A stretch of DNA of 64,000 nucleotides from Nitrospirota bacterium. GTDB lineage: Bacteria > Nitrospirota > UBA9217. This document shows, in pieces, positions 61,250-64,000 of the stretch. Both the position numbers and the translations under genes were made by a program. The notes under the pieces were generated by a model, which saw only the letters and a program-made list of their open reading frames with translations, searched no databases and had not been told where the DNA came from. Each line of letters opens with the position of its first letter. Position 1 is the first letter of the stretch. Where the stretch lies: contig CAVTRN010000001.1 of assembly GCA_963737155.1 (NCBI GenBank), positions 160,001 to 224,000 of the forward strand, read 5' to 3'.

Positions 61250-61325
61250 GGGCGGATAGCTCAGCTGGGAGAGCACAGCCCTTACAAGGCTGGGGTCACA
61301 GGTTCGATCCCTGTTCCGCCTACCA
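61250..61325 (+). tRNA. tRNA-Val(TAC)
   Basis: Cloverleaf with acceptor GGGCGGA/TCCGCCT, anticodon loop CTTACAA, GGTTCGA T-loop and encoded CCA. Confidence 0.97.
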
Positions 61326-61416: not shown

Positions 61417-61493
61417 GGGGTGGTAGTTCAGCTGGTTAGAACGCCGGCCTGTCACGCCGGAGGTCGCGGGTTCGAGCCCCGTCCGCCCCGCCA
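61417..61493 (+). tRNA. tRNA-Asp(GTC)
   Basis: Acceptor GGGGTGG/CCGCCCC, anticodon loop CTGTCAC, GGTTCGA T-loop and encoded CCA. Confidence 0.97.
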
Positions 61494-61520
61494 TTTAAAC
61501 CGCCTCATTTCTATCTGCAG

Positions 61521-61594
61521 TGTGTGACGTGGTACATAGTTTGACGTAATCGACATACTATGGTACTTTTACACAGTGCGACAAACTATGGTCC
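61521..61594. repeat. Three related ~16-bp sites just 3' of tRNA-Asp (transposase- or integrase-binding-like)
   Basis: GTACATAGTTTGACG (inverted copy), CGACATACTATGGTAC and CGACAAACTATGGTCC; preceded by TGT at 61521. Confidence 0.55.
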
Positions 61595-61600
61595 TGTCCG

Positions 61601-61845
61601 TGTCCGCACACAATTAAGTTTTTGCTCAAACAATTAAGTCCTTACTATTAAAATCCTCCAGACAATTAAGTTGTTATTTTTTCTCCGTTCTATAATTCGG
61701 AAGTCAGGCATGACACAATGGTATAACGTATAGTGCGTGGTCATGACCTATCAGTGAATTCTCATTTCAGTTCAAACATCACTGCAAAGGCACAGATGTT
61801 CATAGTATCGGGAGACAATAAAGTTTGCCCTGGACAATAAAGTTT
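61601..61845 (+). mobile_element. Tn7-like transposon end
   Basis: TGTCCGCACACAATTAAGT parallels the Tn7 end TGTGGGCGGACAATAAAGT; five direct ACAAT(T/A)AAGT sites at 61610, 61630, 61662, 61815 and 61834. Confidence 0.8.
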
Positions 61846-62207
61846 TTTCCAACCGGTTGGCTAGTGGGTTATAAATTCAGATTCAAATATGCAATTATTT
61901 CGATTCCTAATAACTCGCGAGATTTTTCCTTTACTTGTTGATGCCGTCATATTTATAACATTGCAATTATCAATCCGTATTCTGTAACCTTTCTATGAAA
62001 AAAATCTCTGGTCCAATTCTCGACTCATTTATACTACCCACTTACTAACACAATCTCAACTTGATAGCATAGGAATTTGCATTTTCCCCTCCATTTTGCC
62101 CTCCCGAACGTCAAAAAATCGACATCCTCTGCAAAAAATCTAAGAATTATTTTTATGCAATCAATATCATTACGCTATAACTAGTTGTTAATTATTAAAA
62201 ATTGTCT

Positions 62208-62223: not shown

Positions 62224-62261
62224 ACTAAAGTTTTAATAACCTAGGAGAAACCAAGACCATC

Positions 62262-62480
62262 GTGGAGTCGATTACGAAGGTGAAGGATCAGATCATTCAG
62301 ATTGCGACGGCAGTAGAAGAGCAATCGGCAACGGCTGAGGAAATATCGAAAAATATTGAATCCACCTCAAGCATTTCAAGGAACATGAAAAAATGGCAGG
62401 CAACGTTATCGGTGAAGTGCAGCATCTTTCGGATATCGCCGCGGAACTGGGCAGAGCTTCCGCCGATATTAAATCTGTGA
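62262..62480 (+). pseudogene. MCP C-terminal remnant
   Basis: QIIQIATAVEEQSATAEEISKNIE, then an apparent frameshift; sensor and signalling tip absent. Confidence 0.75.
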
Positions 62481-63150
62481 GTTGCTAACGCAGTTACGAT
62501 GGCCGGAATGACCGTCGCACCACTTCTACCCTAAGTGATGGCCATAGTTCTGAGTGCACTGGTCACAAATATCATGGCCTGCGCACTTGCCTGCTCGCTC
62601 GGAAGGCTTTCCAATGAGAATGAACATAGACCCTTCCTTCGGGCGGATCCACAACAAGCGAAGCCTGTTGCGATTCTGCTCATATCAAACGTTCATGTCA
62701 AGTTTTAGCTTGTATTCTTTGCCCTCATCATAAATTTGACGATGCAATCTTATATATGAAGGCCGGATGGCCAGAATTGTTAGGAAGGTAAATAATTCTG
62801 TTTGAATTATGGATGTTTTGATATGGCTTTTCTGGCAACAAGAACTTCCTGGAGTCTGCAGAAGCTGCATAGTTTGGATATTGTAGAATACATCTCGAAT
62901 TTGTGATATCAAACCCAAATATACTCGACCTACCAATATTTTTTTGCAATAATGTGCCGCTAAAATCCTGCGAAACAGGGAAGGGATGGTGGGTTTTAAA
63001 TGCTATCCCCTTTTTGTAGACGTGATTTCCCAGAATGAACATTCTGGGACCTGAAAAAAGGAGGATAAAAATATGTAATTTATGCGGTTTTTTTGTAGAT
63101 GCTTGTGTGCCGTGGTTTTTTCAAAATCTTAAAAAATGGAGGCAACATTA

Positions 63151-64000
63151 ATGAAGACGTGGTCATACTTGAAATTGTCGTTGTATGTTGTACTATGCTG
63201 CACACTGGTTGTCGGACTTGGCCTCATGGCTGGCTGTAAAGGTAGTAACGGTGCGGCTGGTGCCAATGGCGTCAATGGTACGAATGGCACAAACGCCGTT
63301 AATGGCGTTAATGGCGTCAATGGTAGCAATGGCATTAATGGCATCAATGGCACTAATGGTATAAGCGCTTTGACATCTGAGTTAACTTATACCACCGCCA
63401 TCAACAGTGTCGTTTTCACGTCCAGCAGCGGAAGCGCGGTAGCGACCATTAATTTCTCCGTAAATTATTATGCGGATGGTGTTCTGGGCGGAGAAATTAT
63501 CGGGCTCGATGCGCCGGATTCCGTCACCCCCGCAGATCTGGGCCACATGAGAATCGGCATGGTTAAGCTGATCCCAGGTATCGCCACGAAAACAACCGGA
63601 TCCACGCCCAATACATGGTGGCCTGTCGGAAGCAGTGAAAATATTGCTGCCCGGCTGGTAAACAACGGCAACGGCATGTATACCTATACAACAGGTACCA
63701 TGGCTATTTCCGGGGCTACCACGACGTCCAATTACTATGATCCTACACAATATACGCGGGTCGTGCTCCTGATCATGCCCAAGGATCACAGCGGCCAGGG
63801 TAATTTTGTTTCCCCCGTTCCGATCGAACTGGGAGAGGCCGCCAAATATGACCTGACAAACGGAACTACCATTTCTCAGGATGTCGTCCCGACCGCGCAA
63901 TGCCTCAATTGCCATTCCACCTTCGGCGATCCGAGGCTCAATCCGCTGGCATTCCATCCCGACGAAGGCCGCACCGAGACGTTTGCTTGCGACATATGCC
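63151..64000 (+). CDS. OmcA/MtrC-like multiheme c-type cytochrome lipoprotein (partial, runs off the window)
   Basis: GGAGG RBS; lipobox MAGC; Gly-X-Asn repeats; LVNNGNGMYTYT; DVVPTAQCLNCH; FH..GR....CDIC at the edge; frame open to 64000 and absent from the ORF track. Confidence 0.85.
   Translation, partial: MKTWSYLKLSLYVVLCCTLVVGLGLMAGCKGSNGAAGANGVNGTNGTNAVNGVNGVNGSNGINGINGTNGISALTSELTYTTAINSVVFTSSSGSAVATINFSVNYYADGVLGGEIIGLDAPDSVTPADLGHMRIGMVKLIPGIATKTTGSTPNTWWPVGSSENIAARLVNNGNGMYTYTTGTMAISGATTTSNYYDPTQYTRVVLLIMPKDHSGQGNFVSPVPIELGEAAKYDLTNGTTISQDVVPTAQCLNCHSTFGDPRLNPLAFHPDEGRTETFACDIC
63241..63360 (+). repeat. 9-bp tandem repeats encoding collagen-like Gly-X-Asn triplets
   Basis: GSN GAA GAN GVN GTN GTN AVN GVN GVN GSN GIN GIN GTN G. 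Confidence 0.85.

What the first reader, a model, noticed from the sequence alone, without database searches (positions are those of the whole stretch)
61601..61845. Unannotated Tn7-like transposon end about 108 bp downstream of tRNA-Asp
Seen: TGT at 61601 with the first ACAATTAAGT site at the same offset as in the Tn7 end (TGTGGGCGGACAATAAAGT), then four more direct copies (first pair 20 bp apart, last pair 19 bp apart). Known: Tn7-family ends carry arrays of TnsB sites, and several TniQ/TnsD and CRISPR-associated transposons home to tRNA genes. Inference: this is one end of a tRNA-Asp-targeted Tn7-like element, or possibly a CAST. Its tns genes would lie beyond the window, and the 5-bp flank GTCCG would be the target duplication.
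Basis: partly seen in the sequence, partly recalled or inferred. Interest (0 to 1): 0.8.

Follow-up and report, generated by a model that had tools for sequence, protein, structure and literature searches.

The report
Orphan Tn7-like transposon ends after tRNA-Asp
The repeats are genuine binding-site arrays of Tn7-type transposons parked just behind a tRNA gene, but they are leftovers with no transposase genes and no second end, so the finding is real yet fairly ordinary.

Summary
There are five exact ACAATWAAGT sites at 61610, 61630, 61662, 61815 and 61834, with TGT 9 nt before the first. This is a Tn7-family end signature. In 119 loci from many phyla that carry the site pair, TGT sits at -9 in 58, and 21 encode Tns proteins. 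One family relative (G060) has a 25.8-kb element with tnsABC, three TnsD-family ORFs and such arrays inverted at both ends.

The ~25.7 kb of extra DNA after tRNA-Asp has no tns or cas genes found, no CRISPR-like repeat and no inverted array. The genome's only TnsB lies 1.25 Mb away, is 25% identical to G060's, and has different end sites.

The array is two stacked truncated termini, 61601-61805 and 61806-61852. A conserved 78-nt block (61523-61600) lies outside them. The same block-to-array junction recurs at C1:624154-624268 and after tRNA-Asp in genome G213. So GTCCG is not a target duplication. Verdict: orphan right-end relics at a tRNA attachment hotspot.

The parts
61250..61325 (+). tRNA-Val(TAC)
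   Evidence: ARAGORN; Rfam
61417..61493 (+). tRNA-Asp(GTC), the attachment-site gene
   Evidence: ARAGORN; Rfam. A metagenome contig (L235) has a near-identical tRNA-Asp followed 18 nt later by the same end type.
61494..61522 (.). Host spacer between tRNA-Asp and the conserved mobile block
   Evidence: It aligns poorly with the corresponding 27 nt of G213, whereas the sequence from 61523 onward is conserved.
61523..61600 (+). 'A block': conserved 78-nt block starting TGTGACGTGG. It has its own 16-nt repeat: 61531-61546 inverted, 61551-61566 and 61579-61594 direct. Its nature is unexplained.
   Evidence: 94% identical over 78 nt to G213:C6:239611-239689 and 87% to C1:624180-624268. It is always joined to the alpha array. 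It was found in only 2 of 64 family genomes. As RNA its fold is not better than shuffles (z -0.78).
61595..61606 (+). Tandem TGTCCG TGTCCG.
   Evidence: G213 reads GGTCC|TTTCCGCAC without the first copy. Locus C1:624 kb reads TGTCCG TATCCGCAC.
61601..61805 (+). Alpha relic: terminus 9-mer TGTCCGCAC (61601-61609), sites B1 61610-61619, B2 61630-61639, B3 61662-61671, then 134 nt with no match elsewhere in the genome. It is the truncated att-proximal (right-type) end of a Tn7-like element.
   Evidence: The same terminus type T(G/A)TCCGCA-N-ACAATWAAGT occurs in 96 metagenome stretches, 19 with further sites. G213 keeps four sites at spacings 20, 20 and 44; the window has lost about 31 nt.
61806..61852 (+). 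Beta relic: terminus 9-mer TATCGGGAG (61806-61814), sites B4 61815-61824 and B5 61834-61843. It is a second, stacked terminus cut off after 47 nt.
   Evidence: 96% identical to C1:627860-627815. There it starts 20 nt after tRNA-Glu(CTC), and the homology begins exactly at the -9 position. The 9-mer TATCGGGAG is also terminal in locus L093.
61853..61939 (+). ~85-nt repeat related to the 3' flank of an IS110-family transposase gene. It marks where the beta relic is cut off.
   Evidence: 88% to C1:829224-829307, which overlaps the 3' end of ORF 828211-829242 (Pfam Transposase_20 and DEDD_Tnp_IS110).
62254..62583 (+). Fragment similar to two longer genomic copies; by eye it looks like the C-terminal part of a chemotaxis-receptor gene.
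   Evidence: 89% and 85% to C2:1952976-1953305 and C2:363306-363627. The 72-aa ORF has no Pfam hit. The gene name is my reading of the translation, not a tool result.
63136..64000 (+). Start of an 821-aa MtrC/MtrF-like multihaem cytochrome lipoprotein gene, the first intact gene of the 25.7-kb extra DNA.
   Evidence: Pfam PF22113 at 1.7e-44 plus cytochrome c families.

Best explanation
The five repeats are TnsB-type binding sites left behind by Tn7-like transposons that home to a position about 20-30 nt downstream of tRNA genes. In intact relatives the transposase binds three or four such sites per end and cuts at a T(G/A)T nine nt outside the outermost site. TnsD-family selectors choose the target. 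In this genome only end fragments remain. They are an alpha terminus with three sites (61601-61805) and behind it a beta terminus with two sites (61806-61852), cut off at an IS-related fragment. Both point away from tRNA-Asp, as attachment-proximal ends do. A conserved 78-nt block of unknown nature lies between the tRNA spacer and the alpha terminus. No cognate transposase, no second end and no CRISPR-like repeat exist, so the array cannot transpose on its own. It marks a tRNA insertion hotspot that has since filled with ~25.7 kb of unrelated accessory DNA. Shown: site identity, family signature, absence of tns genes and of a partner end, stacking, and extra DNA relative to relatives. Inferred: the order of events, TnsB binding, and that the array is inert.
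For: (1) Family signature. 21 have a tblastn match to TnsA/B/C/D within the 8-kb locus. In 11 of the first 80, a TnsA match starts 70-600 nt inside the pair. (2) An intact relative. G060:C11:359698-385514 has arrays inverted at both ends, flanks CAAGG/GAAGG (4 of 5 identical), and Pfam-confirmed TnsA, TnsB, TnsC and three TnsD-family ORFs. (3) tRNA homing. Nine termini lie 18-25 nt after tRNA-Leu, Ser, Glu, Gly or Asp. (4) Orphan status. One PF09299, one PF06527 and one PF08722 match exist in the genome, all at C1:1.47 Mb. That TnsB is 25% identical to G060's, and its end reads TGTCACAA-ACAATAATA. No inverted site cluster lies in the island. No tns, integrase or cas family was found in 18 scanned island ORFs. 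(5) Extra DNA. In 5 of 7 relatives with the tRNA-Val/tRNA-Asp pair, the peptidase-M3 gene (here C1:247217-248953) starts 62-470 nt after tRNA-Asp; here it is 25.7 kb away. (6) Stacking. Homology of 61806-61852 to the tRNA-Glu locus starts exactly at the -9 terminus. Stacked termini also occur in G365:C73, and a tandem junction ...ACA|ACTAC|TGT... occurs in L185. Passages read in PMC8649781 say adjacent insertions give multiple ends.
Against: All five 10-nt cores are intact. The A block plus alpha array is far better conserved between two genera (69 of 71 and 75 of 85 aligned positions) than the neighbouring tRNA spacer (53 of 80). That is more than a freely decaying relic should show. It fits recent horizontal spread or selection on the module. 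The identical A-block/alpha junction at three places (two genomes, two loci) is not explained by simple stacking. No alpha left end abuts the beta terminus, so truncation must be assumed. The G241 mini-element shows no target duplication at the proposed termini (1 of 5). No binding or transposition experiment exists. Absence of TnsB in other array-bearing genomes may partly reflect incomplete assemblies.
Confidence: 0.72

Rival explanations
1. This is the end of an intact tRNA-Asp-targeted Tn7-like element or CAST, whose tns/cas genes lie downstream of the window, with GTCCG as the target duplication.
For: The end signature is genuine, and tRNA-Asp is a real attachment site for this end type (L235). 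In G060 the tns genes lie 11 kb from the attachment-proximal end, so distance alone would not exclude them.
Against: The whole genome (100% complete, 2 contigs) has one tnsA/B/tniQ set, 1.25 Mb away, with a 25%-identical TnsB and other end sites. There is no inverted array in the 25.7 kb up to the conserved neighbour gene or elsewhere, apart from the duplicate loci at 624-628 kb. There is no CRISPR-like repeat and no spacer-like 15-mer. GTCCG lies inside sequence conserved in two other copies and is absent in G213.
Confidence: 0.03
2. The array, with the A block, is a maintained module rather than debris. It could be a non-autonomous end that related transposases supplied in trans still use. 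Or it could be a TnsB-binding decoy that gives the tRNA site target immunity against re-insertion.
For: Five of five cores are intact. The A block and alpha array are 97% and 88% identical between genera while flanking DNA is near random, and conservation stops about 14 nt past the last site. Non-autonomous elements with both ends but no tns genes exist (G241 3.7 kb, G387 5.4 kb). Arrays occur without a detectable TnsB in 8 of 9 other array-bearing genomes. Target immunity through TnsB sites is an established property of Tn7; this is recalled, not checked in a call.
Against: There is no partner end, so the array cannot move as a transposon. Stacked termini show that re-insertion next to existing ends did happen. 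The module occurs in only 2 of 64 family genomes, which argues against a host function. High identity is equally explained by recent transfer.
Confidence: 0.15
3. The repeats are not transposon sites at all. They would be arm-type sites of a tyrosine-recombinase island, or operator sites of a regulator near the tRNA operon.
For: Their location is directly downstream of a tRNA, the classic integrase target. The A block contains an inverted pair of its own repeat.
Against: No integrase family was found among 18 scanned island ORFs. No 15-mer repeat of the tRNA-Asp 3' end lies in the island. The same arrays sit inverted at both ends of a tnsABCD element and directly upstream of tnsA in 11 loci. 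TGT is enriched at -9.
Confidence: 0.04
4. The copies at 221.6 kb (+) and 624.2 kb (-) are the two ends of one giant ~402-kb element.
For: The two arrays are inverted relative to each other, as left and right ends would be.
Against: The flanks are inverted copies of each other (GTCCG on one side, its reverse complement on the other), not a direct 5-nt duplication. The homology continues 78 nt outside the supposed termini. Gene order with relatives resumes 25.7 kb after tRNA-Asp.
Confidence: 0.01

Closest known systems
Tn7 and TnsD-homing Tn7-like transposons (ends with arrays of TnsB sites)
   Same: TGT 9 nt before an ACAATAAAGT-type site, several sites at ~20-nt spacing, placement just downstream of a conserved gene, and orientation with the closely spaced array next to the target. 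Passages read in PMC8649781 state that arrays of TnsB sites are a general feature of Tn7-like elements.
   Different: Here there are no tnsABC genes, no selector and no second end. Many relatives of this end type start TAT instead of TGT. In the one intact relative, 11 kb of cargo separates this end from tnsA.
tRNA-homing Tn7-like elements (CAST I-D and I-B2 TnsD homing; type V-K CAST)
   Same: Insertion a few tens of nt downstream of a tRNA gene in fixed orientation. Passages read in PMC10293859 report TnsD-dependent homing 30-33 nt downstream of tRNA-Leu. For V-K elements only the title and abstract start of 10.1101/2021.02.06.429022 were seen.
   Different: No cas genes found, no CRISPR-like repeat and no homing spacer here. 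The intact relative G060 uses three TnsD-family proteins, and no cas gene was seen among the ORFs I scanned there. Distances are 18-25 nt.
Remnant Tn7-like insertions at attachment sites (such as nrdB in Acinetobacter baumannii)
   Same: An ancestral insertion has decayed so that only parts remain at the attachment site (passage read in PMC11014353).
   Different: In that case some genomes keep the tns genes and the ends are hard to recognise. Here the ends are crisp and the genes are gone.
Non-autonomous mini-Tn7-like elements
   Same: G241 (3.7 kb) and G387 (5.4 kb) carry the same sites inverted at both ends without tns genes.
   Different: The window has only one-sided termini, so it is not even a mini-element.

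Membership tests
Tn7-like transposon (complete element) | Terminal 5'-TGT a fixed few nt outside the outermost TnsB site | tested here: met
   TGT lies 9 nt before B1. TGT is at -9 in 58 of 119 surveyed loci. However, the two other copies of this same junction read TAT and TTT.
Tn7-like transposon (complete element) | Array of several directly repeated TnsB-type sites within ~150-250 nt of the terminus | tested here: met
   Five exact sites in 234 nt. The same arrays lie next to tnsA in 11 of the first 80 surveyed loci.
Tn7-like transposon (complete element) | Second end with the sites in inverted orientation | tested here: not met
   No inverted cluster lies in the 25.7-kb island. The only other clusters in the genome are duplicate tRNA-proximal-type copies at 624-628 kb.
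Tn7-like transposon (complete element) | 5-bp target-site duplication flanking both termini | tested here: not met
   There is no second end to compare. The proposed GTCCG is part of a 6-nt tandem repeat lacking in G213 and lies inside conserved sequence.
Tn7-like transposon (complete element) | tnsB (with tnsA, tnsC) and a TniQ/TnsD selector within the element | tested here: not met
   Single genomic matches to PF09299, PF08722 and PF06527, all at C1:1.47 Mb. Island ORFs show other families.
CRISPR-associated transposon (CAST) | cas effector genes, a CRISPR array and a homing spacer matching the attachment site | tested here: not met
   No 16-mer occurs three or more times in the island. No 15-mer of 221400-221625 occurs elsewhere except the duplicate locus and two isolated hits. 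No cas family was found among 18 scanned ORFs. Small ORFs were not all scanned.
tRNA-integrating tyrosine-recombinase island | Integrase gene next to the tRNA and a direct repeat of the tRNA 3' end at the far boundary | tested here: not met
   No integrase family was found in the scanned ORFs. No 15-mer of the tRNA-Asp 3' part recurs in the island.
Orphan / relic Tn7-like end | Genuine end signature, no cognate transposase in the genome, no partner end | tested here: met

The most novel reading that the evidence does not exclude
The ~190-nt module (A block plus the TnsB-site array) is kept intact and spread between genera because it works on its own. As a TnsB-binding decoy at tRNA attachment sites it would give cis target immunity against invasion by related Tn7-like transposons. 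Alternatively it would be a docking module used in trans. The unexplained A block would be a second protein-binding part of that module.
Probability: 0.1. Interest if true: 0.7.

Novelty: new member of a known kind. Interest (0 to 1): 0.3.

Why it matters
The finding marks tRNA-Asp and tRNA-Glu(CTC) in this lineage as Tn7-type attachment hotspots. It also explains why about 26 kb and about 18 kb of strain-specific DNA sit behind them. It points to a little-described Tn7-like group whose ends often start TAT instead of TGT. The one intact member carries several TnsD paralogues. The same end type is found after a TPP-enzyme gene and after at least five different tRNAs. Most copies seen are orphan ends or gene-less mini-elements. 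For annotation, such arrays should be labelled as transposon-end relics, not as evidence of an active transposon or CAST. The unusually good conservation of the A-block/array module is the one point that could repay an experiment.

Tried and rejected
A giant 402-kb element bounded by the copies at 221.6 and 624.2 kb was rejected. The flanks are inverted duplicates and gene order with relatives resumes after 25.7 kb.

A paralogous promoter shared by the two neighbouring cytochrome genes was rejected. The 821-aa and 695-aa proteins show no significant similarity (best E 0.06).

A structured RNA or terminator in the A block was rejected. The fold has z -0.78, no terminator-like site was found, and Rfam found only the two tRNAs plus one chance-level hit.

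An alpha left end abutting the beta terminus was looked for by eye in 61672-61805 and not found.

Mobilisation by the resident 1.47-Mb element is unlikely but not excluded. Its TnsB is 25% identical to G060's and its end sites read ACAATAATA. I did not find that element's left end with the terminal 25-mer at <=6 mismatches.

One search used a badly written pattern that did not match even the window's own genome, so its zero of 64 means nothing. One search repeated the question with a corrected pattern.

The chance expectations for the collection scans (roughly 9, and tens) are my own rough estimates for equal base frequencies, not tool output. For one search only the 19 of 97 matches with further sites are treated as real ends.

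The tblastn screens used only G060 and G000 Tns proteins and short loci, so 'no tns hit' is weak evidence for those loci.

Supplementary tables of PMC8649781 and PMC10293859 (lists of elements and attachment sites) were not seen. They may already include this group.

Complex prediction, structure prediction, sequencing-run tools and protein database searches were not used.

Full report
OBSERVATION. The window carries tRNA-Val (61250-61325) and tRNA-Asp(GTC) (61417-61493) on the + strand. Downstream lie five exact copies of ACAATWAAGT at 61610, 61630, 61662, 61815 and 61834. There is no other exact copy in the 64-kb window. TGT sits at 61601, nine nt before the first site. In the whole 4.84-Mb genome there are 33 exact sites. 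Only two clusters exist: this one and a pair at C1:627823/627842 on the minus strand.

ARE THESE Tn7-TYPE SITES? I scanned 401 genomes of the phylum for two sites 8-11 nt apart. Ten genomes matched, this one included, and none matched the reversed-pattern control. One of them, G060 (same family), has a 25.8-kb element, C11:359698-385514. At one end, directly after the stop codon of a TPP-enzyme gene, lie three sites at 19-20-nt spacing plus a fourth, degenerate site. At the other end lie two inverted sites. The 5-nt flanks are CAAGG and GAAGG. Between the ends are Pfam-confirmed TnsA, TnsB, TnsC and three TnsD-family ORFs of 489, 580 and 268 aa.

They come from Paenibacillus, Pseudoalteromonas, Bacillus, cyanobacteria, Acinetobacter, Vibrio and others. 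Of the 119, 21 have a tblastn match to Tns proteins within the 8-kb locus. In 11 of the first 80, a TnsA match begins 70-600 nt inside the pair. The trinucleotide nine nt before the outermost site is TGT in 58 of 119, TGA in 25 and TAT in 9.

Within the phylum the 9-mer before the first site reads T(G/A)T-N6 in nearly every case. Examples are TATCCGCAA, TATCCGCAG and TGTCAGGAA; here it is TGTCCGCAC.

tRNA HOMING. Ends of this type lie 22, 20, 19, 20, 22, 18, 25, 20 and 21 nt after the 3' ends of tRNA-Leu(GAG), Glu(CTC), Ser(TGA), Glu(CTC, this genome), Leu(GAG), Asp(GTC), Ser(TGA), Gly(CCC) and Leu(GAG). The tRNA-Asp case is a metagenome contig (L235) with a near-identical tRNA-Asp. The same end type also follows the stop codon of the TPP-enzyme gene in G060, G241, G251 and three metagenome contigs. 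The three TnsD paralogues of G060 would fit several attachment sites; this is an inference. tRNA homing by TnsD is known: passages read in PMC10293859 report insertion 30-33 nt after tRNA-Leu.

WHAT IS MISSING HERE. In five of seven relatives that keep the tRNA-Val/tRNA-Asp pair, a peptidase-M3 gene starts 62-470 nt after tRNA-Asp. In this genome its homologue is C1:247217-248953. About 25.7 kb (window 61494 onward) is therefore extra. Its G+C is 0.41-0.50 from C1:225 kb on, against 0.51-0.55 in the immediate flanks.

I scanned 18 of the 26 ORFs of at least 70 aa in that stretch against Pfam. Fourteen gave a family: an MtrC/MtrF-like cytochrome, HiPIP, RNase H, an HD-domain protein, OsmC, DUF188, MFS, an aldo-keto reductase, DUF1499, DUF4337, two YNCE-like propellers and RecD2. 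Four gave no hit. No tns, integrase or cas family appeared.

There is no inverted site cluster even at two mismatches. No 16-mer is present three or more times. No 15-mer of the tRNA-Asp region recurs elsewhere, apart from the duplicate locus and two isolated hits.

The genome (100% complete, two contigs) has one match each to the TnsB, TnsA and TniQ families. All are in one element at C1:1.47 Mb. Its TnsB is 25% identical to G060's. Its end reads TGTCACAA-ACAATAATA, a different site. The array is therefore orphan.

The same holds elsewhere. With the G060 TnsB as query, none of the eight other array-bearing genomes gave a match (completeness 90-100%). Two of them hold gene-less mini-elements with both ends: G241, 3.7 kb, and G387, 5.4 kb. 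G387 has flanks ATTCA/ATTAA; G241 has no recognisable duplication.

THE ARRAY IS COMPOSITE. (a) Bases 61806-61852 (TATCGGGAG, B4, B5) are 96% identical to C1:627860-627815. That copy begins 20 nt after tRNA-Glu(CTC), and the homology starts exactly at the -9 terminus position. B4-B5 is thus the terminus of a second element type (beta), stacked behind the first (alpha, 61601-61805). In the window beta stops at 61852. There an ~85-nt repeat begins that is related to the 3' flank of an IS110-family transposase gene. Stacked termini also occur in G365:C73. A clean tandem junction ...ACA|ACTAC|TGTCCGCAT occurs in L185. Passages read in PMC8649781 describe multiple ends arising from adjacent insertions.

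Together with the first alpha sites they are 87% identical to C1:624268-624154. They are also 94% identical to a block that lies 27 nt after tRNA-Asp in G213, another genus of the family. In a three-way alignment, conservation begins at TGTG(A/T)CGTGG and runs through the alpha sites. G213 lacks the first TGTCCG that supplies 'GTCCG'.

Between G000 and G213 the block is identical at 69 of 71 aligned positions and the alpha array at 75 of 85. The tRNA-Val/Asp spacer is identical at only 53 of 80 with many gaps. G213 keeps four alpha sites at spacings 20, 20 and 44; the window has lost about 31 nt. G213 has no Tns match and no inverted sites in the 40 kb downstream, and no PF09299 match in the genome, which is 77% complete.

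The block has its own 16-nt repeat, one inverted and two direct copies. It occurs in only 2 of 64 family genomes. It shows no significant RNA fold, Rfam match or terminator. What it is remains unexplained.

MECHANISM. The best reading (0.72) is as follows. Tn7-like elements repeatedly homed to the site just behind tRNA-Asp, always with the closely spaced array towards the tRNA. Their bodies were later lost. An IS and other fragments accumulated, and the locus filled with unrelated accessory DNA. Without a cognate TnsB and a partner end, the array cannot transpose. The main reservation is the striking conservation of the A-block/alpha module and of all five cores. That fits recent transfer, or a maintained function such as trans use or target-immunity decoy (0.15).

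COMPARISON AND NOVELTY. This works like, and derives from, Tn7-like TnsD-homing transposons. It fails membership as a complete element on three defining features: second end, target duplication and tns genes. It also fails as a CAST. It is best filed as orphan end relics of a Tn7-like group that may be little described, with TAT/TGT termini, several TnsD paralogues and multiple tRNA sites. I did not search the literature for this group specifically, and the supplements of the survey papers were closed. Interest is modest (0.3).

Noticed in passing
G000:C1:1469658-1474796 (outside the window): A Tn7-like element with tnsA (1469884-1470558), tnsB (1470757-1472715), tnsC (1472699-1473607) and tniQ (1473699-1474796). 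Its end TGTCACAA-ACAATAATA appears to interrupt an ORF on the minus strand (1469307-1469669). I did not find its left end.
   Followed up: partly
window 61853-61939; also C1:829224-829307, C2:1682663-1682739, C1:1637405-1637444, C1:233084-233123: An ~85-nt repeat (83-90% identical copies, also present in four other genomes of the genus). It lies at the 3' end of an IS110-family transposase gene at C1:829 kb and just upstream of a DUF772/DDE transposase gene at C1:1637 kb. It could be an IS end or a preferred IS target.
   Followed up: partly
window 62749-62850: An ~100-nt multi-copy repeat (86-95% identical). Copies lie at C1:226923, C2:395877 and C1:976221 and in several genomes of the genus. 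It looks MITE-like.
   Followed up: no
G000:C1:623861-625452 (outside the window): A 1.6-kb non-coding stretch between two convergent genes is packed with repeats. It holds up to six A-type repeats, the alpha fragment, a ~100-nt multi-copy repeat (624476-624575) and a ~420-nt repeat (624926-625344). The 420-nt repeat has about 20 copies in genome G011.
   Followed up: partly
G000:C1:609416-627878 (outside the window): tRNA-Glu(CTC) is a second hotspot. The sequence that follows this tRNA in relative G003 matches C1:608959-609416 here, about 18 kb away. The DNA in between includes the beta end, a 695-aa multihaem cytochrome gene and a 1072-aa Big_5 repeat protein gene.
   Followed up: partly
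L038:1585-1700 (G060:C11:359584-359699): Four copies of GTAACAACTTTATTCCC lie directly outside the left terminus of the G060 element, in the opposite orientation. They may be the end of a neighbouring element with a variant site. An extra copy of the element's left-end region lies inside it at L038:4112.
   Followed up: no
window 62254-62583: A gene fragment 85-89% identical to parts of two loci on contig C2 (1952976-1953305 and 363306-363627). By eye it is the C-terminal part of a chemotaxis receptor. It has no Pfam hit.
   Followed up: partly
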